Assembly: GCA_026710875.1 (NCBI GenBank)
Contig: JAPOQE010000107.1
Coordinates: 6,208 to 70,207, forward strand
Reading direction: 5' to 3'
Origin: Gammaproteobacteria bacterium
Lineage (GTDB): Bacteria > Pseudomonadota > Gammaproteobacteria > UBA4575
Length of the DNA: 64,000 nt
Shown: piece after piece, positions 12,204 through 41,969 of the stretch
Layout of the letters: each line of letters opens with the position of its first letter
Position numbering within the stretch: the first letter of the stretch is position 1
Made by a program: the position numbers and the translations under genes
The notes under the pieces: generated by a model
Seen by the model: the letters and a program-made list of their open reading frames with translations, nothing else
What the model was told of the DNA's origin: nothing
The model's database searches: none

Positions 12204-12307
12204 AAAGTTTGCTCCCTCGACGAGTTATGGAAGACAAACGCGCATTTTGGCTGAGACAGGTGAATAAAACCAGTGTGCCTCGAAGAATTGGCTACTGAAA
12301 TACCAAA

Positions 12308-13192: not shown

Positions 13193-13205
13193 CCATCCCT
13201 TCATC

Positions 13206-13892
13206 ATGGTTTCTCGCAAAGGGATTTTTATTACAGGCACAGATACCGACGTTGGCAAAACATATGTCGGAACACAAATCGTCACATTGCTGCATGAAAA
13301 CAGTATCAATGTGGTGCCTCGAAAACCAATTGAATCCGGGTGCATTCGTATCCAGGACGCGCTTGTGCCACAAGATGCGCATCAATACTATGAAGCCACA
13401 AACCGTAAATTCCCGCTCGCAGAGGTGTGTCCTTTTCGTTTCGAGCCAGCGATCTCACCACAACGTGCAGCACGTCTGGCCAATCAACCCGTGTATACCG
13501 AAGAAGCATTTGCAAAATGCGTACAGGGGACAACGCATGAAGATTTCCTGGTCGTCGAAGGTGCGGGGGGATTCTATTCGCCACTGTGCGAAGATGGCAT
13601 GAATTCAGACCTTGCCAAAAGACTGGGCTTGTCCGTTTTGCTGGTTGCGAATGACAAGCTTGGTTGTATCAACCATATCCTGCTAACCATTGAGGCCATT
13701 CGTACCCAAGGGTTGTCTGCATGTGCAGTGATCCTGAACCAAATCGCTGCACATGATACTTCTGAAATGAATAATTTCGATGATGTAGCCGAGCGGCTAA
13801 GAGTACCGGTTTTCACGATTTCCCATCAGGAAGTACTGCAAAATACCACTGAGAAGGCACGCTCAATTCTCCTGGCAGTAAGGGGCCATTAA
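13206..13892 (+). CDS. bioD: ATP-dependent dethiobiotin synthetase
   Basis: 228 aa; GTDTDVGKT P-loop, EGAGG, CINH; starts 13 bp after the purC stop. Confidence 0.8.
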   Translation: MVSRKGIFITGTDTDVGKTYVGTQIVTLLHENSINVVPRKPIESGCIRIQDALVPQDAHQYYEATNRKFPLAEVCPFRFEPAISPQRAARLANQPVYTEEAFAKCVQGTTHEDFLVVEGAGGFYSPLCEDGMNSDLAKRLGLSVLLVANDKLGCINHILLTIEAIRTQGLSACAVILNQIAAHDTSEMNNFDDVAERLRVPVFTISHQEVLQNTTEKARSILLAVRGH

Positions 13893-13944
13893 AACCGGAC
13901 CCAGACCGTTCCTGAGGGCCCACACCTTGTGGACCCTTCCAGAA

Positions 13945-15252
13945 CTACATGTTGTATCCGGCTTCCTCGTGTTGGGTAATGTCCAAACCTTCCGTTTCCT
14001 GTTGGTCATCAACACGCAGTCCTACAATCACCTTCACGACCTGCAAGATCACAAAAGTGGCAATGGTAGTCCATATCAGCACTGCAAGGATGCCCTGAAG
14101 CTGGACCCACACCTGCTGGCCCATGGTGACACCTTCAGCCAGGCCGGCTCCTCCAAATTGCTCGGCAACCAGAATACCGCAGAGGAACGTACCTAGAATT
14201 CCCCCAATACCGTGTACCGGGAATACATCCAGTGAGTCATCGATCTGCAGAACGCGTTTAATGTAGTTTGTCGCAGCAAAGCAGACCAGGCCTGCAACAG
14301 CACCAATGACAAGTGCTCCCAGAGGCCCTACAAATCCCGACGCCGGGGTGATGCTCCCAAGCCCAGCCACCATTCCTGTAACTATTCCAAGAACACTTGG
14401 CTTGCCATAGCGGATCCACTCGGCAAACATCCAGACGAGTGATGCGGTAGCAGCACTGAGATGCGTGACCAGCATGGCCATTCCTGCATCCTGATTAGCA
14501 GCGACTGCACTTCCTGCATTGAAGCCAAACCATCCGACCCACAGCATCCCGGCACCAGTCACCGACATGGTCAAATTATGAGGCGGCATCGCGGTCCTCG
14601 GGAAACCCTTTCTTTTACCAAGCACCATGGCAGCAACGATTGCACCCGTTCCAGCAGTCAGATGGACAACCAGCCCGCCTGCAAAATCCAGTACACCTTT
14701 CTCGCCTAGCCAGCCGCCACCCCAAACCCAGTGACAGACCGGAAGATAGACAAGCAGCAACCACAGTGCAGAAAACCACAGCATGGAAGAAAACTTCATA
14801 CGCTCTGCAAAACCACCGACAACCAGTGCGGGCGTAATGATGGCAAAGGTCAACTGAAACATGATAAATACTGTTTCCGGGATGGTTCCACTCATCGAGT
14901 CTCGAGTTACGCCCGACAAAAATGTATTGGACAGACCGCCTATCCAGTTGTTTAGGGTACCTCCATCACTGAAAGCAAGACTGTAACCAAATACCAACCA
15001 TAAAAGGGAAATCAGGCAAGTGATCGAAAAACACTGCATCAACACTGACAAAACATTCTTGCTGCGCACCAGGCCTGCGTAGAACAGTGACAATCCGGGA
15101 ATTGTCATGAACAGCACCAATGCAGTGGAGGTCAGGATCCACGCGGTATCACCTGTATCCAGAGCTGACTCAGCCCATACGGCAGATGGGAGCAGATAGA
15201 CCAACATGGTAGCAAGGCAGAAGCTTCTACAGCTTTTATGTATTACTTTCAT
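13945..15252 (-). CDS. amtB: ammonium transporter
   Basis: Start trimmed to MKVIHK: AGGAAA lies 8 nt upstream and this avoids overlapping glnK. Amt family TM blocks; signal-like N-terminus. Confidence 0.9.
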   Translation of the reverse strand: MKVIHKSCRSFCLATMLVYLLPSAVWAESALDTGDTAWILTSTALVLFMTIPGLSLFYAGLVRSKNVLSVLMQCFSITCLISLLWLVFGYSLAFSDGGTLNNWIGGLSNTFLSGVTRDSMSGTIPETVFIMFQLTFAIITPALVVGGFAERMKFSSMLWFSALWLLLVYLPVCHWVWGGGWLGEKGVLDFAGGLVVHLTAGTGAIVAAMVLGKRKGFPRTAMPPHNLTMSVTGAGMLWVGWFGFNAGSAVAANQDAGMAMLVTHLSAATASLVWMFAEWIRYGKPSVLGIVTGMVAGLGSITPASGFVGPLGALVIGAVAGLVCFAATNYIKRVLQIDDSLDVFPVHGIGGILGTFLCGILVAEQFGGAGLAEGVTMGQQVWVQLQGILAVLIWTTIATFVILQVVKVIVGLRVDDQQETEGLDITQHEEAGYNM

Positions 15253-22769: not shown

Positions 22770-22804
22770 ACTCAAATAGAAAGGGTCCTGCTTGCACAGG
22801 ACCC
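22770..22804 (-). terminator. rho-independent terminator downstream of the GPP34-P450 gene
   Basis: Perfect inverted repeat GGGTCCTG-cttgca-CAGGACCC at 22783-22804; on the minus strand it is followed by TTTCTATTT. Confidence 0.6.
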
Positions 22805-23015: not shown

Positions 23016-25025
23016 CTACGCTGTCGCAGCAACTTCGATGGGGTGTCTATACCGTACAACCCGAAACCCGAACTTCTTGCTTGGGCTGAGTTTTGGCAAT
23101 GGATTGATCTTCAGTTTGTAATTAGCAGGGTCCATTTCCAATTCGAGGTGACGGGCAATCAAGAGCAGATTGACAGCCATTTGCAGCTCGGTCCAGCGGG
23201 ATCCTCCGCACATATGCGTCCCGACGCCGAATGGCGCATAAATACCGCTGGCCTGTTTGTGTTCGTTCCGGGGCGGTGTGTACCTATCAATATCAAAAGC
23301 GTCTGGATCCTTGAAATGCTGTTCATCATAATGAACTGATGAAAAGGCCACCAGAACGGTACTGTAGGCTGGTATTTCCATACCCTCGACCTCAAATGCG
23401 TTCATCGCAGTGCGCAGGTGTATCGGTACTACCGGATACCGCCGCAGTGTTTCCATGACAAACCGGCGGGTTACGTCTATGGCGTGCGGGCTGAGATCTG
23501 CCCCAACCGGGTCTCCATCTGCAAATAGTGCATCAGCCTCAGCAGCAATCCGATCCCGCAGATCGGGGTGCATCAACAGCTCATAGATTGCAAAAGCCAT
23601 TGCACTTCCCAGGTAGTGCCCAGCAATTATCGGGGCAATAAATGCGAACCCCATATCGGTTTCCGGCAGGAACTGGGGGTCTGACTGGTGGAGCGCCATC
23701 AGGTCGTCTACCAGGTCCCGCCGCTTGCCCTCCCGTTGCGCGGGCGTATGTGTCGCATGGATTTGGGTATAGAGCTCAAGAACACGCGCATGCGCTCGCT
23801 TCATGGCCGGCGTACGCAGTGTAAACTTCGGTAACATGCGGTATAGATGAACCAGCAGCGCCCGGTATTCAAATTTGATGAGGTCGTCAAGGATATCAGT
23901 AGGTTCGATACTGACGCTGAGCTGTGCGACCTGCTCGCCAATCATTCGCTGGCAAGCATCTTCGCCGGATACTGTCTTCCCGATACCCCATTTGGCGAAC
24001 GCACGCCTGCCAAGATCCAGCACTTCATTCAGCCGATCCTCAACCACTGCACGGGAGTTGCCTGCCTGCACCGCTTTACGCATTCGAAAGTGATCTGCCC
24101 CGTCCAGGCTGGCTATGGACCGTGCGGTTCCCCACTCCTGCTGAAAGTCCTCGAGATAATCCCGAGTGCGCAGATAAAGTCTTCCCTTGTGTCCCACCCA
24201 ACGATTCAACTCCGCACTCGCGAACACGATCATCTCGCGGCCAGGGGCATTGATCTGGAAAATTGGCCCCAACTCCTTGCTTTTCTCCGCTATGAACTTG
24301 GGAATATTACCGGACCGGAAGGTTCGCGAGGCAAGCATGCCAAAAGGTCCGATGACTGGAATCGAGGGCCGCTGCACAGAGCGTATAGCTGAAGGCGGAC
24401 GATAGGAACTGAGTACGGCGGCCCCAATGGTCCGTCCGATTAAATCCATTCCACTGAAGAGCTTGATTCGATCCTCGGCAAGCTCGTATTCCTCTGGCTC
24501 GAGCATTGCACGAATTCCGCCACAGCTATTCATGAGGCCAATAATCGCAAAATCGCGCGGATCCGGAATTTCATCATCAAGCAGTGCACGCATGATTCTG
24601 CTCTTGACCTCTTCTCCAATCTTGCCATCCACAGTGGGGTATCGCCTCGAACGGGCAACCTTCCCCGACAAGGACCAGAATCCCCCGGAGTCCGCATTGA
24701 GCACACCGATTTTGACCAGCCGGTCAAGCGCCATCTCACTGATTTCATCTGAGCGCCGCGCGATGCGCTCCACCCAGTATTGAGGAGAATGTACTCGGGT
24801 ATCCGTCACAATCTCTTCCAGCACAGGGTCCAGGAGCTCATCACCGGTGGGTGTTGGATCGAGCAAGGTAAGCGTTTGCAGGTCCGAGTCGATGCGGTTC
24901 TCCAGGGAGAGGTCGATCAGAACACCACCTGCAAGCACACAGGACAAACTCCACTCGGGAATAGGGATGAAATAGCCCGTCTCCTCATTCAGCAACAACA
25001 AGAGTATTTCTTCAGCAAATCGCAT
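23016..25025 (-). CDS. GPP34/GOLPH3-like domain fused to cytochrome P450
   Basis: 669 aa. N-terminal ~215 aa: L.AEE.LLLLL.EE.G start and DP.PTGDE.LD block typical of GPP34. C-terminal ~440 aa: ExxR (ETLRR), PERF-like FDIDRY, heme-thiolate loop FGVGTHMCGG. Confidence 0.8.
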   Translation of the reverse strand: MRFAEEILLLLLNEETGYFIPIPEWSLSCVLAGGVLIDLSLENRIDSDLQTLTLLDPTPTGDELLDPVLEEIVTDTRVHSPQYWVERIARRSDEISEMALDRLVKIGVLNADSGGFWSLSGKVARSRRYPTVDGKIGEEVKSRIMRALLDDEIPDPRDFAIIGLMNSCGGIRAMLEPEEYELAEDRIKLFSGMDLIGRTIGAAVLSSYRPPSAIRSVQRPSIPVIGPFGMLASRTFRSGNIPKFIAEKSKELGPIFQINAPGREMIVFASAELNRWVGHKGRLYLRTRDYLEDFQQEWGTARSIASLDGADHFRMRKAVQAGNSRAVVEDRLNEVLDLGRRAFAKWGIGKTVSGEDACQRMIGEQVAQLSVSIEPTDILDDLIKFEYRALLVHLYRMLPKFTLRTPAMKRAHARVLELYTQIHATHTPAQREGKRRDLVDDLMALHQSDPQFLPETDMGFAFIAPIIAGHYLGSAMAFAIYELLMHPDLRDRIAAEADALFADGDPVGADLSPHAIDVTRRFVMETLRRYPVVPIHLRTAMNAFEVEGMEIPAYSTVLVAFSSVHYDEQHFKDPDAFDIDRYTPPRNEHKQASGIYAPFGVGTHMCGGSRWTELQMAVNLLLIARHLELEMDPANYKLKINPLPKLSPSKKFGFRVVRYRHPIEVAATA

Positions 25026-25091: not shown

Positions 25092-26165
25092 CTATGCCTG
25101 GACTGATTGAAGGTTACGCTTGGACAGATACCCATCCTGATGCTCAGGATAAAACTGTTCACAATAGCGCCTATAGACAGCAATCTCGCCGTCAGAACGG
25201 CACAGTTGCGGACGGGATCGATAATGCTTCCGACTCCAAATCACCACGTCCTGTAAGACGTCTCGTTTTTGTACCGATATGATGATTTTGCTCATGATTC
25301 TTGTGCGCAAGCCGGCAGGCATGAAACGCATACCAATGATAGGCCGCTTTGGCTTGCGCATTTCCCGTAATTGCCCAACCAGCACCAAGTCAATAAGTGT
25401 TCCATCGACAGGCGTTGCAAGCACCCATAACCTTGCATCCATACCCAGGGTGCGTTCGTAGATCTGCACAAACGAGTAGCCGAGCCCATAGACATGAGCA
25501 ACTGCGGAAACATCGAATATGAAGCTCATGACACCTGCAATCTTTTGGGTTCTTCTGAATTCAAAACAACTTTCTAGACAAGCTCCCTTTACAGATACCG
25601 ATGCCGTCCTACTCACATTGCTGTAACCATGTACATAGCGTAAATGTGCCATATCCACGGCATTCTCAGTGGTTTCCTGGGGATGACCAGGAAACTGCAT
25701 GGATCGAAATTCCAGCTCGCCCCAATCAGGGCCGGTTGGCGGGTCCTCAGGCAGGTGCCACTGAGAAGGCCGCCCATTAGTCCCCCACCAGGCGAAGACG
25801 AGACCAAGAAGTTCCCGTGTCTCAAACACATGCAGTTTAGCGGACTCGGGAGGAGGAGCAAAGGGTGTGGTAACGCATTGGCCACAGACATCGTATTCAA
25901 ATCCGTGAAAGGGACAGACGAGGCAACCGTTACGTACTTGGCCCCCTGCTTCAGGACCCAGCTCTGAACCCATATGTGGACACACTGACTCGGCTACGCA
26001 AATGCACCCTTCATTGTCGCACCAAACAACGATCTGAATACCCAGCCAGGTCTTTTGAATCAGCTTTTCCTTGACTATGGATTTAAGACTGGCCACAAAA
26101 TACCAGCCTTCTGGAAATGGAAAAAGCAAGGAGGAATCACTGCGTTTGGTTTGACTTGCCTTCAT
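25092..26165 (-). CDS. Rieske [2Fe-2S] non-heme iron oxygenase, alpha-only type (KshA/PaO/Neverland-like size)
   Basis: 357 aa; Rieske CPH..x19..CPFH; mononuclear iron motif D-x2-H-x4-H (DMAHLRYVH). Confidence 0.8.
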   Translation of the reverse strand: MKASQTKRSDSSLLFPFPEGWYFVASLKSIVKEKLIQKTWLGIQIVVWCDNEGCICVAESVCPHMGSELGPEAGGQVRNGCLVCPFHGFEYDVCGQCVTTPFAPPPESAKLHVFETRELLGLVFAWWGTNGRPSQWHLPEDPPTGPDWGELEFRSMQFPGHPQETTENAVDMAHLRYVHGYSNVSRTASVSVKGACLESCFEFRRTQKIAGVMSFIFDVSAVAHVYGLGYSFVQIYERTLGMDARLWVLATPVDGTLIDLVLVGQLREMRKPKRPIIGMRFMPAGLRTRIMSKIIISVQKRDVLQDVVIWSRKHYRSRPQLCRSDGEIAVYRRYCEQFYPEHQDGYLSKRNLQSVQA

Positions 26166-26224: not shown

Positions 26225-26493
26225 GATACCATATCCATGGTACCAAAAGGCACAGTTCCATAGCAGCGCTATGCAGATTTATTGTAGCGAGTCAGCTAGT
26301 GGGTTACTAATACTCAATCCATTCCGGATGCATCAAAACTTGTCCAAGACTTCGTAGGGCTTCAGAAACTTCCGGGGCCTGTCGTGCAGACCCCGGAGTC
26401 GTGCAAGGACAGGTGATGCCATGAACCTACAGCACCAGACTCAGAGCAAAAGGTCTCACGGTATTGCGCGAGCAGCCTCTAGCTTGAAGTTAT

Positions 26494-29400
26494 TCAGTCA
26501 GCGGGCTGGGGTACAGCCGGGACAGGGGAATCCGCTTCATCATGGCGGATCCTCTTACGCAGATGAATGGCCATCAGCGCAGGTACAACCATCATCAGTA
26601 TCGCCGTCGTTATCATGATCCCGAAACCGAGCGATGCTGCAAAAGGAACCAGGAACTGGGCCTGTATGGCGCGCTCCAGTATGAGAGGCATGAACCCAAG
26701 GAATGTGGTCACGGAAGTGAGAAAAATTGGACGAAAACGCCCCTTGGCACCTTCAATAATCGCGGTTCGGGGAGAGGCCCCTTCGTTGAGCCGCTGGTCG
26801 ATGAAATCGATCATCACCAGAGAGTCGTTCACAACTACGCCGCTCAGGCCAAAACTACCCATGAAGGATGCAGCACTCATGGCAACCCCGAGTACCCAGT
26901 GCCCCAGGATCGCACCAACCAGACCGAACGGTATAACGGCCATGATTATAAACGGCTTGGTATAGGAACGTAGGGGGATCGCCAACAACGCAAATATCAT
27001 GAGCAAGGCGAGCACAAAACCACGATTCAGCGAGTCCAGGGACTCCATCTGCTGCTGTTGTTCGCCTCCAAACGTGTAGGTCAGGTCAGGATAATCCGCC
27101 TCTAGGCCTGCAAGAATTGAATCCGCCAAGATGGTATTGGCTTCTCTGCCGGAGATTACAGTCTGGTCGATATCTGCCGTTATTGTCGCCACACGCTGAC
27201 CGTCTTTGCGTCGAACCGATGGCGGTGAAATGCCTGATTTGAGCCGAGCTACCTGGCTTAACGGAACCTCAGCGCCACCCGGAGTATGGATCAGGTACCC
27301 TTCGATATCAGTGATGGCATTGCGTTCGCTGGCCGGCAGTCGCACATAGACTTTGACTTCTTCGCGCCCTCGCTGCACCCGCAAGGCCTCCGCACCGAAG
27401 AATGCTGAACGGGTTTGCTGGGCCAGTTCTTCAAGTGTGATACCAAGCGTGCGTGCTTCGGCGCGCAACTCAAGCTGGATCTCCCGAATTCCCGGTGAAT
27501 GATCGGAGCGGACGTCAAAGACACCCCCTACACCGCGGAGGCCGCGAACCACGGAATTCGCAATTTCGGCAAGGCGCTCCGTATCCGGGTGCGACAATAC
27601 GGCTTCAACAGGATTGCCAAGATCGATAATCTCTCCGCTGAAAGTGAGGCCCCGGACATAGGGTGGCAAACCCACTTCCTCCCGCCATGCATCCACGACT
27701 GCCCTGGTAGAAAGCTGACGCTGTTGTGCACTCAGCAACTTAAACTCTATGGTGGCAATATTAGCTTCAGGATTCAGTGTGGGTGCAGGTACCAGCCCGC
27801 CCCCTTCAACACGAGGTCCCTGACCGACAATTACGGTTACACCTGAAAGCAAGGAAGGCGCGCCCTCCCCTCGGTCACGCGAAAGTCGTTCGATCACCCG
27901 GTGCCCGGCAGCCTTCAGTTCCCTTGCCACTTCGTACGTTCTTTGTGCGGTCGTTCCATCAGGCATTTCCAGGCTTGCCGTAACAAAATCGCCCTCGACC
28001 ACATCAGCAAACGTTGTCTTCACAATGCCGGCCGGGACCAGGGATACGCAGACGATGAGCAGGCCAATGGCTGCCGAGAACGTAATCACGGGCTCGGCCG
28101 TTGCGTAACGCAGCCCACGATCAAGGGGACCCGCTAGAAACTTGTCTAGCATTCGATCTACAGCGCCCTGGACCCTTGCAAAGAACCGGTCAACAGGACC
28201 GGTTGGCTCCCAATCCGGGCCATGCAGATGAGACAGATGGTTTGGCAGGATCAGCTGTGACTCAACCAGAGAGATCAGCAACATTGCTATGATAATTATC
28301 GGCAACGCACCCCATATTTCCCCGATACCACCCGGAATAAAAAGCAATGGGGAGAACGCAGCCACTGAGGTAAGGACAGCAAAGGTCAAGGGTACTTTGA
28401 TTCGCCGCGCGCCACGGACCGCTGCCACAACACCGGGCGCACCTTGCTTGCGCTCATAATGGATGTGCTCGGCCACGACGATGGCATCATCAACCACGAT
28501 ACCGATGGCAAGAACAAACGCGAACAGGGAGATTGTGTTAATTGCAATATCAAGGGTCAACATGACGGCAAGAGCGCCGATTCCTGAAACAGCCAGGCCG
28601 GCCGCCACCCAAACAGCGAGTCGAATTTCCATAAACAAGGCCAGAGCAATGAATACCAGCAGCAGGCCCAGGGTTCCATTCTTGACAAGGAGATCGACGC
28701 GTTCGGCGTAGGTCTGGGATTCGTCATTCCATATCGTGATACCCACACCATCTGGGAGTGATGGAATGATTACGTTGGCTACGTGTTCCTGTACAGCCGT
28801 CGCGACATCCATCACCTGTTCTCCCTCCGATCGGTATACCTCGACGAAGGCGGCAGGTTGGTTCTGATGTCTGATGATCAGGTCGGTGTCACGGAAACCG
28901 TCACGTACCGTGGCAATCTCTCCCAGACGCACCACGGTACCGTCGTTGCGGCTGAGGATGACGATTTCTTCAAAATCCTGCTGGTCATAGCGCTGCCCGA
29001 GAGTACGCACGCGTACTTGGGCATCATGTGTTTCGATACTGCCTGCTGACAGATCAAGGGACCCATGGCGGATCGTGTTTGCAATGTCGGCCAGGGTAAG
29101 GCCCAAGGCACGAAGGCGGGAGAGTGGTACTTCGATAGAGATCTCGTAATCACGTACACCACTGGTTTCAACTGATGAAATGGCGGGCAGAGAAGCGAGT
29201 TCATCCTCAACCTCGTACGCCAACTCCTTGAGTGAACGTTCAGAGATATTGCCATAGACAAGGAGACGAATGACGCTCTGCCTGTTGGTCATCTCCCTAA
29301 ACTCGGGACGCTCTGCTCCACCCGGGAAGGACTGGATGCGGCCTACTGCAGTCTTGATATCGTCCAATGCACGGCCGATATCCGTGCCAGATTTCAGTTC

Positions 29401-29712
29401 GATTCTGATTGAGGCCATTCCTGGCGCAGCTATCGACTTGACCGTTTTTACATCCTCCAGCGAGTCGACCTGCTCCTCGATCTTCACCACGATCGACTCC
29501 TCCACCTCCTCTGGTGTAGCCCCGGGGTAAGCCATGGAAACTTCCACTGTGTTGAATGGCAGGGTGGGCCAGGCTTCTCGCTCGAGTCCAGTCAACGCCA
29601 CCAGACCGGCCGCCAGTATGGCAAACATGAAGAGATTGGAGGCGACACTATTATTCGCCATATAGGCGATAGGTCCGCCTGGCTCTTTTGGATGACTTGC
29701 GGTGCTGCTCAT
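26494..29712 (-). CDS. RND efflux transporter permease (HAE-type, AcrB-like)
   Basis: 1072 aa, 12-TM RND architecture; TM4 region AIGIVVDDAIVVAEH carries the DD pair of HAE1 pumps, not the D-x3-D-x3-E of HME pumps. Confidence 0.85.
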   Translation of the reverse strand: MSSTASHPKEPGGPIAYMANNSVASNLFMFAILAAGLVALTGLEREAWPTLPFNTVEVSMAYPGATPEEVEESIVVKIEEQVDSLEDVKTVKSIAAPGMASIRIELKSGTDIGRALDDIKTAVGRIQSFPGGAERPEFREMTNRQSVIRLLVYGNISERSLKELAYEVEDELASLPAISSVETSGVRDYEISIEVPLSRLRALGLTLADIANTIRHGSLDLSAGSIETHDAQVRVRTLGQRYDQQDFEEIVILSRNDGTVVRLGEIATVRDGFRDTDLIIRHQNQPAAFVEVYRSEGEQVMDVATAVQEHVANVIIPSLPDGVGITIWNDESQTYAERVDLLVKNGTLGLLLVFIALALFMEIRLAVWVAAGLAVSGIGALAVMLTLDIAINTISLFAFVLAIGIVVDDAIVVAEHIHYERKQGAPGVVAAVRGARRIKVPLTFAVLTSVAAFSPLLFIPGGIGEIWGALPIIIIAMLLISLVESQLILPNHLSHLHGPDWEPTGPVDRFFARVQGAVDRMLDKFLAGPLDRGLRYATAEPVITFSAAIGLLIVCVSLVPAGIVKTTFADVVEGDFVTASLEMPDGTTAQRTYEVARELKAAGHRVIERLSRDRGEGAPSLLSGVTVIVGQGPRVEGGGLVPAPTLNPEANIATIEFKLLSAQQRQLSTRAVVDAWREEVGLPPYVRGLTFSGEIIDLGNPVEAVLSHPDTERLAEIANSVVRGLRGVGGVFDVRSDHSPGIREIQLELRAEARTLGITLEELAQQTRSAFFGAEALRVQRGREEVKVYVRLPASERNAITDIEGYLIHTPGGAEVPLSQVARLKSGISPPSVRRKDGQRVATITADIDQTVISGREANTILADSILAGLEADYPDLTYTFGGEQQQQMESLDSLNRGFVLALLMIFALLAIPLRSYTKPFIIMAVIPFGLVGAILGHWVLGVAMSAASFMGSFGLSGVVVNDSLVMIDFIDQRLNEGASPRTAIIEGAKGRFRPIFLTSVTTFLGFMPLILERAIQAQFLVPFAASLGFGIMITTAILMMVVPALMAIHLRKRIRHDEADSPVPAVPQPAD

Positions 29713-29717
29713 TATTC

Positions 29718-30938
29718 CTAATCGGTCCCGCTGCGAACCTGCATACCTTCAGTGGCGAACTGGATGCCTCCAATGACGACTGCCTGGCCATCCTTGAGCG
29801 CACCAGTGACATAGATTTCAGCATCACCGCGCTGCAGGATCTGTACCGGGACGATACTGATCGTTTGGTCATCACGAATAGTCCATATTTCATTGCCCGA
29901 TTGCAGCGCCAAGCGCGGTACGCGGAAATAGCTTTCTGGTGCAATTCCCCTGATCTCGACCTCCACGAACTTACCTACCAGCAGAGGGGGGCCGTTGTCT
30001 GAATGAGGGGCTGCATTTACCGGAGCACCTGTGGAGAATGGTTCAGGTACACGCACAATCACATCGATGGTTCGTGTCTGCTTGTCAAGCGAGGCTTCAG
30101 CGCGATCGACATGACCGTCCCAGGTATACCTCTGATCACCGTACCGGGCAGTCACACGAGCGGCCACCTGATGTTTGGAATCTCCCGCCTGCAAACTCCA
30201 CAAGTCTGGAATCAAGGCAGTGTTGGCATCAGATAGGGGCACAACCACCTCAACAGAATCGGCGGCAAACAATCGCCCAATGGCCTGGCCGACCGTCAAG
30301 AATTGTCCAATGCCTACCGACTCTTCCCGCACATAGCCATCAAAGGGTGCTTTCACCTTTGTCCGGGACAATGCCAGCCTGGCTTCTGCCACTCTGGCCT
30401 CTTCCCGCTTTAGTGCAGCTTGGGCCGCCTTCAACTGGGGTTCGCGCAGGACCAGGGGACTCGCCTGCTCGACTGTAGACCCTGACTCAAGCTGGCGCCC
30501 GGAGTACTGTTCATATTCAGTTCGCGCGACTGCGGCCAGTTCCTGGGCTTCAAGTAGCCCCACTTTCCGGTCCTCGAAATCGGCCATGGCCTCCCGAAGA
30601 CGGTACAGATAGTCCGCTTCTTCGATTCGAAAGAGTGTCTCATCAGCCTCTACGCGACCCCCACTATGAAAGCTTGGATTTACCCAGACGACTCTGCCAC
30701 TGACCTGGGGAGTAACATCAATTTCTGCACTTGGCCGTACTGTGCCAGCACCGTACACGGGGATCGGCCCGGCACCAGCCGTCACATGAGCTGACTGGAC
30801 AAACGGGATTTGGGGAGGCAGCTCACGGCGTTCCGGTTCAGGGGCCAACGACACCAGAAAGACTGCCAGCACTCCCGCGCCAGCGAGGATGGCCAATGCA
30901 AGCAAGTAACCCCTGAATCTGCTGATGAGACTGTTCAT
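29718..30938 (-). CDS. RND efflux periplasmic adaptor (membrane fusion protein)
   Basis: 406 aa; N-terminal TM anchor, coiled-coil segment, beta-barrel; located between the OMF and RND genes. Confidence 0.8.
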   Translation of the reverse strand: MNSLISRFRGYLLALAILAGAGVLAVFLVSLAPEPERRELPPQIPFVQSAHVTAGAGPIPVYGAGTVRPSAEIDVTPQVSGRVVWVNPSFHSGGRVEADETLFRIEEADYLYRLREAMADFEDRKVGLLEAQELAAVARTEYEQYSGRQLESGSTVEQASPLVLREPQLKAAQAALKREEARVAEARLALSRTKVKAPFDGYVREESVGIGQFLTVGQAIGRLFAADSVEVVVPLSDANTALIPDLWSLQAGDSKHQVAARVTARYGDQRYTWDGHVDRAEASLDKQTRTIDVIVRVPEPFSTGAPVNAAPHSDNGPPLLVGKFVEVEIRGIAPESYFRVPRLALQSGNEIWTIRDDQTISIVPVQILQRGDAEIYVTGALKDGQAVVIGGIQFATEGMQVRSGTD

Positions 30939-30944
30939 ACTGTT

Positions 30945-32471
30945 TTACTCGATAGGTAAGGCTGCCACCTTGGAGTTTGCAGCCTGTGGAGGGTTGCTGA
31001 TTTGTACATTATCTGGATGAGTGTCGATCCACGTGCCACCGAGGGCGCGGTGCAGTGCAAGCCGCATGTAGCCCAGGTCTCGCTCTGCCGCAACGAGTGA
31101 AGTACTCACACTGCTCAGGGTTTCCGAGGCCGCCAGATAGTCATCAAAATCCCCAACGCCAGATCGGTAGCGCCGCTCCTGAAAGGCGGCCTCTGCCCGA
31201 GCTTCCTCAACAGAAGATGTCAGCAAGGCATGGCGATTGTAGCTGGCCTCCAGTTGGGCAAGAACAGTCTCGACCTCATTGACTGCCTCGACCACAGAGC
31301 GCTTATATGCAAAAGCGGCTTCTTTCAGGCGTGACTCTGCAAGGGTTACCTTGTGACGTAATCGTTTGCCCTGCAATGCCGGTCCCGCCAGGTTCAGGGT
31401 CAGATTCTTGAACCACTGAGACGCATTGAACCATTGATCAGTGTCCGAACCCTGCAGCCCGATAGAACCCGACAGCGATAAGGATGGCAGAAGGTCTGCA
31501 CGGCGGGCACCTACCGCATAGCGGGCCGCTTCCATTCGCTGCCACGCTGCACCGACATCGGGGCGCTGAGTAAGAAGATCAGCTGCTATACCTGCAGGAA
31601 CGGGATCGAGTACAACGGGTGCTGAAAAGGAATCAGGTAACATGCCTGCCAGGTCTGCTCGGTACCCTCCCAACAACACCCAGAGTCGTCCCTCGGCATC
31701 CGCCAGCTGACCCCGGATCGCTGGCAACTCGGCCTGCGAATTCCACAGCTTCAGCCGTGCCGTGTAGAGCTCACGCGCAGTGTTCAACCCACGATGGTAT
31801 CGGGTTGTGGTGAGTTTCTCACGATCTTGCAGGACAGCCACAATATTATCCAGCAACCCAAGATGGCGCCGGAGATGCGTAACTTCAATATACGTATGTA
31901 TGGTTTGCGCAATGATCCCTATACGGGCAGCACGGTAGTCCCACTCAGTAGCCAGATGCTCTGCACGGACAGCATACGCATCATTGCGGTTGCGATTCCA
32001 GAAGTCAGCTTCATACGAAAAGTTTGCACTCAAGGAATAGGTCGTGACCCCGAGTCTGTCCGGTACAGCGATGCCAAACTCCTGTTTGAGTTCCGGGCTC
32101 AGCCCGATCTCTTCAATTTGCTCGCCGATGCCGGCATTGGTAGGAGAATCCGTTTCTTCCACCCCTGCCGATGGCTGCAGCTCAGGGTATCTTACTGCGT
32201 TTGCAATGCGCGCTCGGGCCCGGGCTTGCTCAACACGAGCGACTGCTTCTGCAAGGTCAAAGTTCGAAGCCAGTACAGTTTCAATCACTTGGTCAAGCGC
32301 CGGGTCATTGTATGCTTTCCACCACTCCAGTGACTCGTAGGACTTGGCTACACCATCACCAGTGAATTTCTCGGGCAATTGGGGTGCTGGCTCAGGCGCC
32401 GGCAGGATTGAGTATTGTGAACACGCAGATAGCAGGAATCCAATTACGACAGATATCAGCACCACTTGCAT
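30945..32471 (-). CDS. efflux outer-membrane factor lipoprotein (NodT/TolC family)
   Basis: Start trimmed to MQVVLISVVIGFLLSAC (lipobox LSAC); two TolC-like repeats; the ORF's 61-aa N-terminal extension is unlikely to be translated. Confidence 0.8.
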   Translation of the reverse strand: MQVVLISVVIGFLLSACSQYSILPAPEPAPQLPEKFTGDGVAKSYESLEWWKAYNDPALDQVIETVLASNFDLAEAVARVEQARARARIANAVRYPELQPSAGVEETDSPTNAGIGEQIEEIGLSPELKQEFGIAVPDRLGVTTYSLSANFSYEADFWNRNRNDAYAVRAEHLATEWDYRAARIGIIAQTIHTYIEVTHLRRHLGLLDNIVAVLQDREKLTTTRYHRGLNTARELYTARLKLWNSQAELPAIRGQLADAEGRLWVLLGGYRADLAGMLPDSFSAPVVLDPVPAGIAADLLTQRPDVGAAWQRMEAARYAVGARRADLLPSLSLSGSIGLQGSDTDQWFNASQWFKNLTLNLAGPALQGKRLRHKVTLAESRLKEAAFAYKRSVVEAVNEVETVLAQLEASYNRHALLTSSVEEARAEAAFQERRYRSGVGDFDDYLAASETLSSVSTSLVAAERDLGYMRLALHRALGGTWIDTHPDNVQISNPPQAANSKVAALPIE

Positions 32472-32920
32472 GGCGCACCATCTGGATCGATCGAATTGTT
32501 GTGAAACGGTTGCCCGTGCGGTTATGCGAATCTCACGCAGCAGCCGCTCGCTCTGGACCACCACAGGACTACCTCCTACCTGCACTGAGTCGACAGCGCA
32601 GTCTTCCAGCTCTGCCAACATGCTGTGATCCGACTCGATCATGCTGGTGTTCATGACGCAACATCATATCAAAATCCCACCTGTCACGATGATGCAGCTC
32701 AAAGGGATTCTATGCCTCAGGGCATCGTGCTGCAGCACCTGTTCGGATTGTACAGCAGCCGGGAATCAGCTATTGGAACTCATAGAAAGTTTTTGAAGGG
32801 CATCAGGGCATCAGCCCGCCTTCTAACCCTCCATGCAACGCGACACTGATGCCTTGTGTGTCTCGGTGATGACTGTGCCTGTACTCTTTAACTGCGGGCC
32901 GTCTGTAGCCTGTCAAGCAA

Positions 32921-33478
32921 CTATTCTTTCCACTTGATGTTGCACCCCACACTGGGCGTCTGGTCGGGGTCAATCTCTTGGCCTGCAAGCAAAGCATCCA
33001 GAGCTCCTCGAAGGTCTGCGCCGGTCACAGGAATGTCATTTCCAGGCCTCGAGCCGTCCAGCTGCCCCCGGTATACACACTGCAGTGCCTGGTCAAAGAT
33101 ATAAAAATCAGGCGTGCAGGCTGCGTCATACAGCCTTGCAACCTGCTGGGTCTCGTCGTACAGGTAGGGAAAAGTGTACCCAAGGGACTTGGCAAGCGCC
33201 TTCATGTTTTCCGGTGAATCCTCGGGATATTCGACCGCATCGTTGGAGCTGACAGCAATCAGCGAAACCCCTTGGGAAGGGTACTCCTGGCCCAGCCTGA
33301 CCAGCTCGTCCTGGATATGCTTTACAAAGGGGCAATGGTTGCATATGAACATGACAACGGTCGCGATCTCTCCGCGCACGTCCGACAGCCACACTTCTTT
33401 CCCGGAAACCGTATCTGGCAGGCAAAAATCCGGAGCTGACGTACCCAAGGGCATCATGTTGGAGGGTGTCAGTGCCAT
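32921..33478 (-). CDS. thioredoxin-fold redoxin (AhpC/TSA-TlpA-like thiol:disulfide oxidoreductase)
   Basis: 185 aa; APDFCLPD and redox-active CNHC in a thioredoxin-fold context; no obvious signal peptide. Confidence 0.65.
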   Translation of the reverse strand: MALTPSNMMPLGTSAPDFCLPDTVSGKEVWLSDVRGEIATVVMFICNHCPFVKHIQDELVRLGQEYPSQGVSLIAVSSNDAVEYPEDSPENMKALAKSLGYTFPYLYDETQQVARLYDAACTPDFYIFDQALQCVYRGQLDGSRPGNDIPVTGADLRGALDALLAGQEIDPDQTPSVGCNIKWKE

Positions 33479-33581: not shown

Positions 33582-34754
33582 ATGCCTGCAATGCGTGCTT
33601 TCACCTCCGAGTCTGTTTCCGAAGGACACCCGGATAAAATGGCAGATCAGATTTCTGATGCAGTGCTTGATGCTTTACTGGAGCAAGACCCTGACGCGCG
33701 CGTGGCGTGTGAAACACTTGTGAAAACAGGCATGGTCCTGCTGGCCGGGGAGATTACTACCGCTGCTTACGTGGATCTTGACGCTCTCGTGCGGCGTACC
33801 GTCAATGAGATCGGCTATGACCACTCCCGGATCGGCTTTGATGGAAATACCTGTGCAGTCATCAATGCATTGGGTAAACAGTCGCCGGATATCGCTCGCG
33901 GGGTTGACCGCAAGAACAAGGAGGATCAGGGTGCAGGAGACCAGGGCATGATGTTCGGTTATGCCTGCGATGAAACCGATGTACTCATGCCAGCGCCAAT
34001 CACCTATGCACACCGTTTGGTGCGAAAACAGTCCATGGTCAGGAGAGAAGGCAAACTGCCCTGGCTGCGCCCGGATGCCAAAAGTCAAGTGACCTTCGTG
34101 TATAAGGATGGAGGCCCCAGCCACATTGATGCCGTAGTCCTCTCCACCCAGCATGACCCGGATGTCACCCAAGATGAACTGCATGAAGCGGTAAGGGAAT
34201 TGATCATCAAACCGGTACTGCCGGGAAAGTGGCTGACGTCTGACACGAAAGTCCACATCAACCCCACGGGTCGTTTCGAGACGGGAGGCCCCGTGGGAGA
34301 TTGCGGACTGACCGGACGAAAAATCATCGTGGACACTTACGGTGGCATGGCCCGTCATGGCGGAGGCGCCTTTTCCGGAAAGGATCCTTCCAAAGTCGAC
34401 CGCTCTGCTGCGTATGCGGGGCGTTACGTCGCCAAGAACGTAGTGGCTGCCGGGCTGGCAAAATGCTGTGAAATTCAGATCTCCTATGCCATTGGCCTGG
34501 CCCAGCCGACCTCAATCTCGGTCAACACCTTCGGCACCGGGACCCTGTCCGATGACAAAATTGAAGCCATTGTGTGCGACATGTTTGACCTGTCACCGTA
34601 CGGAATTCTGTCCATGCTGGACCTGCTTCATCCGATCTACCAGGCGACGGCCGCCTATGGGCATTTCGGTCGCAACGAGGACAGCTTTCGCTGGGAACGC
34701 ACGGACAAGGTCGGTGAGCTGAAGGAGCGGGCCGGACTTGGTGCGATGGTATAA
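33582..34754 (+). CDS. metK: S-adenosylmethionine synthetase
   Basis: 390 aa; [31 protein letters not shown] motifs. Confidence 0.95.
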
Positions 34755-39725: not shown

Positions 39726-40667
39726 ATGAGACACTTTCTGGACATTGGCAGGCTGAATTGTAAAGAGCTGACCCATATTCTTGACACTGCCAAATCATTC
39801 ACCAGTGTGGAGGGCCAAACTGTAAAAAAAGTGCCCTTGTTGCGTGGCAAGACCATCGTGAACCTGTTTTTTGAGCCCAGTACCCGAACCCGCACCACAT
39901 TTGAACTTGCTGCCAAACGTCTCTCTGCCGATGTGCTCAACATCAGTGTAGCCACCTCGGCTACCGTCAAGGGCGAAAGTCTGCTCGACACCCTGTTCAG
40001 CCTGGAGGCAATGAACACCGATATCTTTATTGTCAGACACCCAGAAAGCGGTGCCGCAGAGTTCATTGCAAAGCATGTTGCTCCGCATATCAGCATTATC
40101 AATGCGGGTGACGGGCGGCATGCCCATCCAACCCAGGCCTTGCTTGACGCCTTCACTATTCGGGAGCATCACCAGGATTTTTCAAAACTGAACATTGCGA
40201 TCGTAGGCGACATCCTGCATTCACGTGTTGCCCGCTCCCAGATTGAGGCACTGAATATTCTGGGTACGCGAGAGATCCGGGTCATAGCACCGCGTACGCT
40301 GTTACCTGCAAATATCGAGCAACTTGGCGTACAGGTATTTCAAGATTGCACGCAGGGATTGAGAGATGTCGATGTAATCATCATGCTGAGACTACAAAAA
40401 GAACGCATGCAAGGCGCATTCATACCGAGTGAACATGAATACTTCCAGCTTTATGGGCTGACACCGGAAAGACTGGCCCTGGCAAACCCTGAAGCAATTG
40501 TCATGCACCCAGGCCCTATCAACCGTGGCGTGGAAATAAGTTCGGAAGTTGCAGATGGTCCCCAGTCCGTAATTTTACAGCAAGTGAAGTACGGGATTGC
40601 CGTTCGTATGGCGATCTTGTCGATTGCCATCAGCACCGGCGAGCGTGGAGTCGACCATGAAACTTGA
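39726..40667 (+). CDS. pyrB: aspartate carbamoyltransferase catalytic subunit
   Basis: 313 aa; FFEPSTRTR and HPxQ motifs. Confidence 0.95.
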
Positions 40668-41940: not shown

Positions 41941-41969
41941 GCCGGTTTTCATTTGAGCGGCCATCAGCC

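What the first reader, a model, noticed from the sequence alone, without database searches (positions are those of the whole stretch)
23090..23900. The P450 I-helix appears to lack the acid-alcohol pair
Counting back ~55 residues from the ExxR motif, the I-helix segment reads FIAPIIAGHYLGSAMAFAIYEL. The canonical A/G-G-x-[DE]-T-[TS] becomes A-G-H-Y-L-G-S, with no conserved Thr or acidic residue.

P450s lacking this pair are typically not classical NAD(P)H/O2 monooxygenases. Examples are CYP74 allene-oxide synthases, prostacyclin/thromboxane synthases, peroxygenases and NO reductase. No ferredoxin, ferredoxin reductase or CPR-like gene lies anywhere in the window. A partner-independent chemistry such as (hydro)peroxide rearrangement or peroxygenase activity is therefore a reasonable hypothesis.
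Basis: inference. Interest (0 to 1): 0.5.

Follow-up and report, generated by a model that had tools for sequence, protein, structure and literature searches.

The report
Sponge-symbiont GPP34–P450 with tyrosine I-helix
The P450 really lacks the usual acid–threonine pair, and this is a conserved trait of a little-studied clade of P450s fused to a Golgi-protein-like (GPP34) domain that sponge-associated bacteria of many phyla share.

Summary
Observation confirmed. The gene is window 23016-25025 (-), 669 aa: an N-terminal GPP34/GOLPH3 domain fused to a complete P450 (ExxR and FGVGTHMCGG intact). The modelled I-helix (residues 455-485) reads ...IIAGHYLGS.... No register puts an acid or Thr/Ser at the canonical pair, and the helix is one residue shorter than in BM3, P450cam, CYP51 and canonical relatives.

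This is not chance. H470, Y471 and S474 are invariant in about 50-120 homologues (63-98% identity) from at least 8 phyla, all MAGs and many named after sponge symbionts. Position 472 toggles Leu/Thr. The Tyr/Asn-type helix marks one derived clade beside a large canonical AG[LIM]DT group.

The partner-independent interpretation is not supported, though not excluded:
- The Cys loop is canonical.
- The nearest sequence and fold neighbours are CYP51 and BM3, not CYP74, CYP152 or CYP8A.
- The co-oriented upstream gene is a KshA-type Rieske oxygenase (a class known to need a separate reductase), and it also has no reductase nearby.
- A PyrK-like FAD/[2Fe-2S] reductase does lie in the window (41787-42839).

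The conserved context is an RND pump plus KshA-like Rieske, with sterol methyltransferases in 19 of 80 loci and SdmA/SdmB-like genes in Binatia loci. That points to sterol (or related lipid) tailoring. Function is untested.

The parts
23016..25025 (-). GPP34-P450 fusion gene, 669 aa
   Evidence: ORF. Pfam GPP34 PF05719 (residues 4-190, E 1.5e-33) plus p450 PF00067 (E 5.7e-38). Full P450 fold in the model, with TM-score (normalised to target length) 0.77-0.81 against solved P450s.
24456..25016 (-). GPP34/GOLPH3-like N-terminal domain (residues 4-190)
   Evidence: Pfam. phmmer to human GOLPH3 3kn1 gives E 2e-4. hhalign of the family profile against GOLPH3 gives probability 96.7%: Trp25 aligns to GOLPH3 W81, but R90, R171 and R174 align to Ala32, Asp93 and Ser96.
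23019..24353 (-). P450 catalytic domain (residues ~225-669)
   Evidence: Model secondary structure. Representative search with this domain found 20310 relatives at E<=1e-3.
23571..23663 (-). I-helix (residues 455-485)
   Evidence: DSSP helix 455-485 in the model. Translation.
23604..23624 (-). AGHYLGS, the site where the acid-alcohol pair should be; His470, Tyr471 and Ser474 invariant, residue 472 Leu/Thr variable
   Evidence: Translation. Invariant columns. Motif census. Alignments to CYP51, BM3, P450cam and canonical relatives.
23442..23453 (-). ExxR (ETLR, E525/R528)
   Evidence: Both residues invariant.
23202..23231 (-). Haem-thiolate loop FGVGTHMCGG (Cys606)
   Evidence: F599, G600, H604, C606 and G608 invariant. 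Aligns without gaps to canonical relatives.
25092..26165 (-). KshA-like Rieske non-haem-iron oxygenase, 66 bp upstream on the same strand
   Evidence: Pfam Rieske plus KshA_C. Best solved relative is KshA 4qdc, E 5.6e-24. Contains CxH...CxxH and ENAVDMAHLRYVH (E-x3-D-x2-H-x4-H) in the translation. Neighbour of the fusion in 53-57 of 80 related loci.
26494..29712 (-). RND efflux permease
   Evidence: Pfam ACR_tran, E 3e-155. Homologue next to the fusion in 62 of 80 loci.
29718..30938 (-). RND periplasmic adaptor (MFP)
   Evidence: Present in 42 of 80 loci.
30945..32654 (-). Outer-membrane efflux channel (NodT/OEP family)
   Evidence: Present in 40 of 80 loci.
22783..22804 (-). Terminator-like hairpin after the P450 gene (9-bp stem, 6 GC)
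26455..26472 (-). Terminator-like hairpin between the RND permease and the Rieske gene; together with the previous hairpin it brackets a likely two-gene Rieske-P450 unit
   Evidence: This is a consensus match only.

Best explanation
**What it is.** The gene encodes an intact haem-thiolate P450 of a derived clade. I call it the Tyr-type clade of GPP34-P450 fusions. In this clade the canonical I-helix Asp/Glu-Thr pair was lost together with a one-residue deletion, and an invariant Tyr (here preceded by His470) took its place.

**Proposed role (inferred).** It is a lipid-tailoring oxygenase acting on sterols or a related polycyclic membrane lipid.
- It works alongside the co-oriented upstream KshA-type Rieske oxygenase.
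- Its substrate or product is handled by the adjacent tripartite RND exporter.
- The GPP34 domain, whose PI4P-binding arginines are not conserved, most likely holds the enzyme at the membrane or binds the lipid.

**Proposed mechanism (inferred, not shown).**
- The enzyme still uses O2 and electrons from a redox chain encoded elsewhere, as the neighbouring Rieske oxygenase must.
- Tyr471, His470, ordered water or a substrate hydroxyl replace the Asp-Thr proton relay.
- Slowed or altered protonation may favour chemistry other than plain hydroxylation. CYP51 (His at the acid slot) and CYP114 (no acid) are precedents for non-hydroxylation chemistry with an altered pair.

**Shown here:** domain architecture, I-helix anatomy, conservation, phylogenetic derivation and gene neighbourhood.
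**Inferred:** substrate class, redox dependence, and the roles of Tyr471 and GPP34.
For: **Intact catalytic core under purifying selection.**
- Invariant Cys606, ExxR and FxxGxHxCxG.
- dN/dS 0.14 and about 0.07 against two relatives.

**The I-helix variant is a derived clade character.**
- H470, Y471 and S474 are invariant.
- A paralogous group at about 45% identity in the same loci reads AS[IV]YLG[SD].
- In an NJ tree the Tyr/Asn types form one clade beside about 100 canonical AG[LIM]DT relatives, including many GPP34 fusions.

**Nearest characterised relatives are partner-dependent monooxygenases.** CYP51 at E 1e-25, then BM3, CYP184A1 and CYP120A1.

**Conserved neighbourhood in 80 genome loci from at least 8 phyla.**
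- KshA-like Rieske in 53-57 loci, often with a 4-nt overlap with the fusion gene.
- RND permease in 62 loci, adaptor in 42, outer-membrane channel in 40.
- Amine-oxidase-like flavoprotein in 24 loci.
- Sterol methyltransferase (Pfam Sterol_MT_C, 62 bits) in 19 loci.
- Binatia locus L015 also carries full-length SdmA-like (408 bits) and SdmB-like (301 bits) genes, two SMTs and a second fusion.

**The association runs deep in the clade.** Distant Tyr-type members at 39-40% identity also sit with MMPL/RND transporters; one of them also has a KshA_C Rieske gene nearby. Two canonical-type fusions do not.

**Sterol link from the literature.** Symbiont SMTs of this kind are biochemically active on sterols (PMC10070321).

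**No conserved reductase or ferredoxin next to either oxygenase**. Redox partners must therefore be unlinked.

**Precedent.** CYP114 lacks the acid yet needs a dedicated ferredoxin (PMC10293830).
Against: - No biochemical data exist for any member. The only paper found that describes the fusion (PMC11706023) proposes a different role, phagosome evasion through PI4P binding.
- The sterol link is guilt by association. It is absent from this window itself: no SMT or SdmAB homologue in 64 kb.
- The SdmA and SdmB matches are below NCBIfam equivalog cut-offs. The SdmB-like protein also matches hopanoid-associated HpnA, so another triterpenoid substrate is possible.
- I could not inspect model coordinates, so the position of the Tyr471 hydroxyl relative to the haem iron is unknown.
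- Sister lineages with Asn in the I-helix (P0132, P0149) recall CYP74, CYP8A and P450cin.
- Peroxiredoxin-family genes flank the module in two lineages. That fits a peroxide theme as well as it fits uncoupling.
- The Rieske partner is degraded in the closest relative and absent within 8 kb in about 23 loci. The two enzymes are therefore not obligately coupled.
Confidence: 0.5

Rival explanations
1. One reading: a partner-independent P450. It would use a pre-formed peroxide, acting as a peroxygenase with H2O2 or as an isomerase or lyase of lipid or sterol hydroperoxides or endoperoxides (CYP74, CYP8A or CYP5A style). It would then need neither the proton relay nor electrons.
For: - The acid-alcohol pair is absent across the clade and one I-helix residue is deleted.
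- Sister lineages carry Asn at the equivalent spot (AGQNLG, ASTNMS).
- No conserved ferredoxin or reductase lies within 8 kb in 80 loci.
- AhpC/TSA-family genes lie next to the module in this window (32921-33478) and, as an unrelated family member, in 7 acidobacterial loci.
- From my own knowledge, sponges are rich in sterol 5,8-endoperoxides.
Against: - No specific sequence or fold similarity to CYP74, CYP152, CYP8A or CYP5A. The CYP152 NCBIfam hit is 30 bits against a 600-bit cut-off.
- The Cys loop is canonical and ungapped.
- There is no Arg-Pro and, in this protein, no Asn.
- The whole surrounding radiation is canonical AGxDT.
- The gene is paired with an O2/NAD(P)H-type Rieske oxygenase that equally lacks a neighbouring reductase.
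- Half of the close homologues re-acquire Thr at 472.
Confidence: 0.2
2. Effector reading from the published description of GPP34_L proteins. The fusion would be a symbiosis factor whose GPP34 domain binds host PI4P to block phagosome maturation, with the P450 domain playing an accessory or unknown part.
For: - PMC11706023 reports 656 GPP34+P450 proteins, all from sponge symbionts, and proposes this model.
- The homologues found here are all MAGs. Many are named after sponge symbionts or sponge bins.
- Identities of 63-85% across phyla imply horizontal spread within that habitat.
Against: - The ORF starts directly with the GPP34 helix, so no N-terminal signal sequence is evident.
- Three of the four GOLPH3 PI4P-pocket residues are not conserved: R90, R171 and R174 align to Ala, Asp and Ser. 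The residue list comes from my own knowledge.
- The gene sits in a metabolic/export module with a Rieske oxygenase and an RND pump, and often with SMT and SdmAB-like genes.
- All P450 catalytic motifs are invariant.
Confidence: 0.1
3. Xenobiotic-defence reading. The P450, the Rieske oxygenase and the RND pump would form a detoxification and efflux cassette for sponge secondary metabolites. The sterol genes nearby would be incidental.
For: - A tripartite RND efflux system is the most frequent neighbour, in 62 of 80 loci.
- The cassette is horizontally mobile among sponge-associated lineages.
- Most loci (61 of 80) have no SMT within 8 kb.
Against: - SMT genes are rare in bacteria yet occur in 19 of 80 loci, several directly abutting the fusion.
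- SdmA- and SdmB-like genes lie in the same cluster in Binatia.
- The nearest solved relatives of both oxygenases act on sterols or steroids: CYP51 and KshA.
- Sequence conservation is very high (>=63% across phyla). From general knowledge, that is unusual for broad-specificity detox enzymes.
Confidence: 0.12
4. The adjacent Rieske protein would be the P450's dedicated electron donor, in a two-protein self-contained system.
For: - Tight co-oriented pairing, sometimes with overlapping stop and start codons.
- Rare GPP34+Rieske fusions are reported (PMC11706023).
Against: - The protein has a full KshA_C catalytic domain with the non-haem-iron motif, so it is an oxygenase rather than a ferredoxin.
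- It is a pseudogene in the 97%-identical relative while the P450 stays under purifying selection.
- It is absent within 8 kb in about 23 of 80 loci.
Confidence: 0.04

Closest known systems
GPP34_L proteins (GPP34 + cytochrome P450 fusions of sponge symbionts; PMC11706023, Microbiome 2025)
   Same: Same two-domain architecture, with Pfam PF05719 followed by PF00067. Same habitat signal: all relatives are MAGs, many sponge-derived, from many phyla.
   Different: As far as the passages I read show, that paper treats the P450 only as a domain label. They mention no I-helix anomaly and no linkage of the fusion to KshA-like Rieske or RND genes, and 'sterol' does not occur in the paper. It does report rare GPP34+Rieske fusion proteins. 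Its PI4P model is not supported by the residue comparison here. One relative comes from a 'Plut' bin and a canonical-type fusion comes from a TARA sample, so exclusivity to sponges is doubtful.
CYP51 sterol 14alpha-demethylase (bacterial: M. marinum 7tef, Methylococcus 6mcw/7snm, M. tuberculosis 1e9x)
   Same: Best sequence match among solved structures (E 1e-25 to 5e-19) and a top fold match. Shares A-G-H at the I-helix and a non-acidic residue at the 'acid' slot (His in CYP51, Tyr here).
   Different: CYP51 keeps the Thr (AGHHTSS). This protein has Leu and a one-residue shorter helix. The match covers only the C-terminal half. Real CYP51s of symbiont sterol clusters are separate genes. This protein carries a GPP34 fusion, whereas Methylococcus CYP51 is fused to a ferredoxin.
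CYP114 (bacterial gibberellin ring contraction); EryF and P450cin (from my own knowledge)
   Same: P450s in which part of the acid-alcohol pair is missing and the loss is functionally meaningful, yet turnover still needs ferredoxin-delivered electrons (PMC10293830).
   Different: CYP114 keeps the Thr and loses only the acid. Here both are gone, a residue is deleted, and an invariant Tyr appears. There is no sequence relationship beyond the superfamily.
CYP74 allene oxide synthase, CYP8A1/CYP5A1, CYP152 peroxygenases
   Same: They lack the acid-alcohol pair.
   Different: None appears among the top sequence or fold matches. There is no Cys-loop insertion, no I-helix Asn in this protein and no Arg-Pro.
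KshA/KshB 3-ketosteroid 9alpha-hydroxylase and SdmA/SdmB bacterial sterol C-4 demethylase (for the neighbouring genes)
   Same: The upstream gene has Rieske plus KshA_C domains, and KshA is its best solved relative. SdmA- and SdmB-like genes accompany the fusion in Binatia loci.
   Different: The window's Rieske protein matches the SdmA model only over the Rieske domain (33 bits against a 600-bit cut-off). It is only distantly related to KshA, and no KshB-type reductase is adjacent.

Membership tests
Cytochrome P450 superfamily (haem-thiolate) | P450 fold with Cys-ligand loop FxxGxxxCxG | tested here: met
   Pfam PF00067 at 131 bits against a 22.8-bit cut-off. FGVGTHMCGG. Foldseek probability 1.00 and target-normalised TM-score 0.77-0.81 to solved P450s.
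Cytochrome P450 superfamily (haem-thiolate) | K-helix ExxR | tested here: met
   ETLR at residues 525-528. E525 and R528 are invariant.
Cytochrome P450 superfamily (haem-thiolate) | I-helix [AG]-G-x-[DE]-T-[TS] acid-alcohol pair (typical but not universal) | tested here: not met
   AGHYLGS, with a one-residue deletion relative to BM3, P450cam, CYP51 and canonical relatives.
GPP34_L (GPP34 + P450 fusion, PMC11706023) | Single polypeptide with an N-terminal GPP34 domain and a C-terminal P450 domain | tested here: met
   All 120 closest database proteins share the architecture.
GPP34_L (GPP34 + P450 fusion, PMC11706023) | Origin in sponge-symbiont genomes | tested here: inconclusive
   The source of the window is not given. 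The closest relative is an unnamed Gammaproteobacteria MAG (L001, 98% amino-acid identity). Many relatives carry sponge-symbiont names. The exact protein is not on record.
GOLPH3/Vps74 PI4P-binding proteins | PI4P pocket residues W81, R90, R171, R174 (human GOLPH3 numbering; list from my own knowledge) | tested here: not met
   hhalign probability 96.7%. W81 aligns to W25 and is kept. R90, R171 and R174 align to A32, D93 and S96 (same result).
CYP51 sterol 14alpha-demethylase | I-helix signature A-G-[QH]-H-T-S | tested here: not met
   AGHYLGS aligned to AGHHTSS: Tyr for His, Leu for Thr, Gly for Ser.
CYP51 sterol 14alpha-demethylase | Full-length similarity, including the B'-helix signature | tested here: not met
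   phmmer aligns only residues ~395-637. No CYP51-specific family model was hit.
CYP74 (AOS/HPL) type partner-independent P450 | Insertion in the Cys-ligand loop and a catalytic I-helix Asn | tested here: not met
   The Cys loop aligns without gaps to canonical P450s. There is no Asn in AGHYLGS. No CYP74 appears among the top 60 sequence or top 50 fold matches.
CYP152 peroxygenase | I-helix Arg-Pro that binds the fatty-acid carboxylate | tested here: not met
   No Arg-Pro in residues 455-485. NCBIfam CypC model scores 30.5 bits against a 600-bit cut-off, over the C-terminal part only.
Partner-independent P450 (functional class) | Turnover without NAD(P)H or a redox partner | not testable with these tools
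   Requires enzyme assays.
Bacterial sterol-modifying gene cluster | Co-location with bona fide sterol enzymes (SMT, SdmA/SdmB, OSC, CYP51) | tested here: inconclusive
   Not in this window. SMT lies within 8 kb in 19 of 80 related loci. SdmA- and SdmB-like genes occur in Binatia loci but score below equivalog cut-offs.

The most novel reading that the evidence does not exclude
The Tyr-type GPP34-P450 and its KshA-like partner would form a horizontally mobile, symbiont-borne sterol-tailoring and export module. In it, a membrane-docked P450 with a tyrosine-based distal pocket would carry out non-hydroxylating chemistry on host or symbiont sterols. Candidate reactions are peroxo-driven C-C cleavage or demethylation, desaturation, or rearrangement of sterol peroxides. 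Together with the neighbouring sterol methyltransferases, the module would contribute to the unusual sterols of sponges that are used as animal biomarkers.
Probability: 0.2. Interest if true: 0.8.

Novelty: new variant of a known kind. Interest (0 to 1): 0.6.

Why it matters
**P450 enzymology.** This is a large, strongly conserved clade that replaced the Asp-Thr proton relay with an invariant Tyr and deleted one I-helix residue. It tolerates either Leu or Thr at the classic Thr position. That makes it a natural experiment on how O2 activation can be rewired.

**Sponge-microbe biology and geobiology.** The same gene travels among at least 8 bacterial phyla of sponge-associated microbes. It moves with a steroid-type Rieske oxygenase, an efflux pump and, in a quarter of loci, sterol methyltransferases of the kind already shown to build 24-alkyl sponge-biomarker side chains (PMC10070321).
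- This names concrete, clonable candidates for further bacterial sterol modifications.
- It offers a metabolic alternative to the published 'phagosome-evasion' reading of GPP34 fusions.

None of this has been shown experimentally.

Tried and rejected
- **Redox partners in the window.** I used regex scans for 4Fe-4S, 2Fe-2S, Rieske, flavodoxin and GxGxxG motifs over 402 ORFs of at least 50 aa. I then ran Pfam or NCBIfam on nearly every ORF of at least 150 aa that does not overlap a larger gene. No ferredoxin, flavodoxin or CPR was found. The motif scan missed a PyrK-like FAD/[2Fe-2S] protein that Pfam then found (41787-42839).
- **Redox partners in related loci.** The same scan over 80 loci found only a lineage-specific FNR+4Fe-4S gene 6-8 kb away in the Porisulfidus group (L011:15946-17064). 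I rejected it as a conserved partner.
- **SMT, SdmA, SdmB and AmOx homologues in the window.** BLAST found none.
- **CYP51 membership.** Considered and rejected: only a partial alignment, and the signature is not met.
- **Brown et al. 2023 supplements.** I searched them for P450/Rieske context or the taxa of my loci and found nothing. Their clusters carry genuine CYP51 and SdmAB genes, which are different genes.
- **Exact-protein look-up of the window's product.** Not on record.
- **Model coordinates.** I could not access them, so the Tyr471-to-iron geometry was not measured.
Full report
**1. What is at the coordinates.**

The finding lies inside one ORF, window 23016-25025 on the minus strand, 669 aa. 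Pfam finds two domains: GPP34/GOLPH3 (PF05719, residues 4-190, E 1.5e-33) and cytochrome P450 (PF00067, E 5.7e-38).

The P450 hallmarks are intact: ETLR (window 23442-23453) and the Cys loop FGVGTHMCGG (23202-23231). An AlphaFold2 model built on 51 homologues (mean pLDDT 79.8) shows one long helix at residues 455-485. The I-helix was therefore identified correctly.

**2. Registration of the I-helix.**

- HMMER alignments to solved bacterial CYP51s lay AGHYLGS on AGHHTSS. Tyr471 falls on the 'acid' slot, which is His in CYP51, and Leu472 falls on the conserved Thr.
- Two MAFFT alignments were made with about 125 family representatives. Both place a one-residue gap: IAGH-YLGS against IAGHETTSG (BM3), VGGLDTVVN (P450cam) and VAGLDTVSG (relatives).
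- Counting residues between the conserved A-G and the downstream aromatic residue gives 10 here and 11 in the references. A residue is truly missing, and only its exact position is ambiguous.
- In every register there is no Asp/Glu and no Thr/Ser at the pair.

**3. It is a conserved, derived clade character.**

- In 51 aligned homologues, A468, G469, H470, Y471, S474 and F478 are invariant. Position 472 varies.
- Among the 120 closest database proteins the motif counts are AGHYTGS about 49, AGHYLGS 46, AGHYTAS 13, with a few Met, Val or Ala at 472. The 80 genome loci show the same pattern.
- A paralogous GPP34-P450 at about 45% identity, often in the same locus, reads AS[IV]YLG[SD].
- A search of 1.8 billion cluster representatives with the P450 domain found 20310 relatives. 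Most of the best 150 have the canonical AG[LIM]DT, including many 650-690-aa GPP34 fusions. Only the branch nearest the query has the deletion plus Tyr, or Asn in P0132 and P0149.
- In an NJ tree these non-canonical sequences form one clade beside the canonical radiation.
- Leu at 472 is found in the outlying member L071 and in all paralogues, so Leu looks ancestral and Thr secondary (inference).
- The gene is under purifying selection: dN/dS 0.14 against L001 and about 0.07 against L003.

**4. Who carries it.**

All 80 related genome loci are MAGs. Many have sponge-symbiont names or sponge bin labels: Ca. Porisulfidus, Ca. Palauibacter, and APA_, COS_ and RHO3_ bins. They come from Gammaproteobacteria, Alphaproteobacteria, Binatia, Gemmatimonadota, Latescibacterota, Vicinamibacteria, Thermoanaerobaculia and Bryobacterales, at 63-98% identity. 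That spread implies horizontal transfer.

The nearest relative is a 1.87-Mb Gammaproteobacteria MAG (L001, OZ243969.1), 98% identical in protein and about 97% in DNA.

One paper describes this architecture (GPP34_L; 656 proteins; said to be exclusive to sponge symbionts). It proposes PI4P-mediated phagosome evasion, without experiments (PMC11706023).

**5. Neighbourhood.**

In the window:
- The gene is preceded, 66 bp upstream on the same strand, by a 357-aa Rieske plus KshA_C oxygenase (25092-26165). It has the Rieske CxH/CxxH ligands and the non-haem-iron motif ENAVDMAHLRYVH. Its best solved relative is 3-ketosteroid 9alpha-hydroxylase KshA (E 5.6e-24).
- Terminator-like hairpins at 26455-26472 and 22783-22804 bracket the pair.
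- Further upstream lies an OEP-MFP-RND efflux operon (26494-32654). Downstream lie tkt-gap-pgk-pyk-fba.

Across the 80 loci, clustering of neighbours gives the following counts:

| Neighbour | Loci (of 80) |
|---|---|
| RND permease | 62 |
| KshA-like Rieske (mostly immediately upstream, sometimes 4-nt overlap) | 53-57 |
| Periplasmic adaptor (MFP) | 42 |
| Outer-membrane channel (OEP) | 40 |
| Amine-oxidase-like flavoprotein | 24 |
| Sterol methyltransferase (Sterol_MT_C, 62 bits) | 19 |

- In Binatia locus L015 the order is: KshA-like Rieske, fusion, flavoprotein, SdmB-like (301 bits, full length), SdmA-like (408 bits, full length), SMT, SMT, second fusion.
- Distant Tyr-type members at 39-40% identity also sit with MMPL/RND transporters; one of them (P0125) also has a KshA_C Rieske gene nearby. 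Two canonical-type fusions do not.
- Symbiont SMTs have been shown to alkylate sterol side chains (PMC10070321).
- Both oxygenases have their closest solved relatives among sterol or steroid enzymes, and sterol genes recur next to them. I therefore infer a sterol substrate, or at least a triterpenoid-lipid one. This is association, not proof, and this window itself has no SMT or SdmAB homologue.

**6. The redox-partner argument.**

Motif scans plus Pfam or NCBIfam on nearly all larger ORFs found no ferredoxin, flavodoxin or CPR in the window. They did find a PyrK-like FNR-family FAD/[2Fe-2S] protein at 41787-42839, after pyrB and pyrC. It has weak similarity to the oxygenase reductases BenC, MmoC and AntC.

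More importantly, no ferredoxin or reductase is conserved near the fusion in 80 loci. The adjacent KshA-type oxygenase belongs to a class that always needs a reductase (general knowledge), and it has none nearby either. Absence of a linked partner thus says nothing about partner independence.

**7. Testing the partner-independent idea.**

- The best sequence matches among solved structures are CYP51s, then P450DA, BM3, CYP3A, CYP120 and CYP90B1.
- The best fold matches are BM3, Methylococcus CYP51, CYP184A1, CYP97C1 and CYP120A1.
- No CYP74, CYP152, CYP8A or CYP5A appears in either list.
- The Cys loop is canonical and ungapped. There is no Arg-Pro and, in this protein, no Asn.
- CYP114 shows that loss of the acid can redirect chemistry while the enzyme stays ferredoxin-dependent (PMC10293830).
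- Points that keep the idea alive are the Asn-type sister lineages, the peroxiredoxin-family neighbours in two lineages, and the complete lack of biochemical data.
- I rate it about 0.2.

**8. The GPP34 domain.**

Profile-sequence alignment to human GOLPH3 (probability 96.7%) keeps the Trp (W81 aligns to W25). It replaces R90, R171 and R174 with Ala32, Asp93 and Ser96, all conserved in the family. That these residues form the PI4P pocket is from my own knowledge. The ORF begins directly with the domain's first helix, so no signal peptide is evident.

I therefore favour a membrane-docking or lipid-presenting role over a secreted PI4P-binding effector. The reported rare GPP34+Rieske fusions fit a module shared by both oxygenases.

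**9. Verdict.**

It marks a conserved, derived, horizontally mobile clade of GPP34-P450 fusions.

The best-supported reading (confidence about 0.5) is a redox-partner-dependent, non-canonical O2-activating lipid oxygenase. Its substrate is probably a sterol, and it works with a KshA-like oxygenase and an RND exporter. The invariant Tyr471 and His470 would substitute for, or deliberately weaken, the Asp-Thr proton relay.

It is a new variant of a known kind. Function and mechanism remain to be shown experimentally.

Noticed in passing
window 41787-42839 (+): PyrK-like FNR-family protein with FAD_binding_6 plus the DHOD-B [2Fe-2S] domain. It follows pyrB (39726-40667) and pyrC (40597-41940), with no pyrD beside it, and has weak similarity to the oxygenase reductases BenC, MmoC and AntC. 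It is a possible general electron donor, and it contradicts 'no reductase-like gene in the window'. The annotated ORF overlaps pyrC, so the true start is probably later.
   Followed up: partly
L001:7163-7883 versus window 25092-26165: In the 97%-identical relative MAG the KshA-like Rieske gene has a 1-nt deletion and lacks the equivalent of window 25149-25443 (295 nt), while the P450 fusion is intact (dN/dS 0.14). This is either ongoing gene loss in a reduced (~1.9 Mb) genome or an assembly error. L004 also shows only Rieske fragments.
   Followed up: partly
L005:5777-7891, L019:15874-18000, L035:5407-7533, L065:3654-5678 and 12256-14394, L078:5637-7766, L015:16101-17995: Many loci carry a second (L065: a third) paralogous GPP34-P450 at about 32-45% identity, with I-helix AS[IV]YLG[SD] or ACESMG. 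The fusion family has duplicated and diversified within the same gene cluster.
   Followed up: partly
L015:6919-17995 (Binatia MAG OZ242288.1); similar in L008, L016, L073: Compact cluster in this order: KshA-like Rieske, GPP34-P450, amine-oxidase-like flavoprotein, SdmB-like, SdmA-like, two or three sterol methyltransferases, second GPP34-P450. It looks like a sterol-modification island in sponge-associated Binatia.
   Followed up: partly
window 24456-25016 (-), GPP34 domain: Three of the four GOLPH3 PI4P-pocket residues (R90, R171, R174) align to conserved Ala32, Asp93 and Ser96. Only the Trp is kept. This argues against the published PI4P-binding model for these fusions.
   Followed up: yes
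window 32921-33478 (-); L045:845-1738 and 6 other acidobacterial loci: AhpC/TSA-family (peroxiredoxin-like) genes flank the RND-Rieske-P450 module in two unrelated lineages, and the two are different family members. This could reflect peroxide stress from uncoupled oxygenases or a peroxide-related substrate.
   Followed up: partly
L011:15946-17064 (also L017, L024-L026, L080): FNR-type reductase fused to a 4Fe-4S ferredoxin domain (372 aa), 6-8 kb downstream of the fusion in the Ca. Porisulfidus/Chromatiales lineage only.
   Followed up: no
L018 (isolate Plut_88898) and L081 (TARA_SAMEA6039926 scaffold): A Tyr-type fusion in a 'Plut' bin and a canonical-type GPP34-P450 in a TARA metagenome suggest the architecture is not strictly limited to sponge symbionts, contrary to PMC11706023. 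Biomes were not verified.
   Followed up: no
window 33582-36100 (+): metK and ahcY (SAM synthetase and SAH hydrolase) lie directly beyond the efflux operon, and metX/metW lie at 45161-46908. These are housekeeping genes. They are noted only because relatives pair the module with SAM-dependent sterol methyltransferases.
   Followed up: no
window 1469-2011 (-) and 63322-63954 (+): A hemerythrin-domain protein with no NCBIfam match, and a 210-aa ORF with no Pfam or NCBIfam match next to the cytochrome oxidase genes (58213-62776).
   Followed up: no
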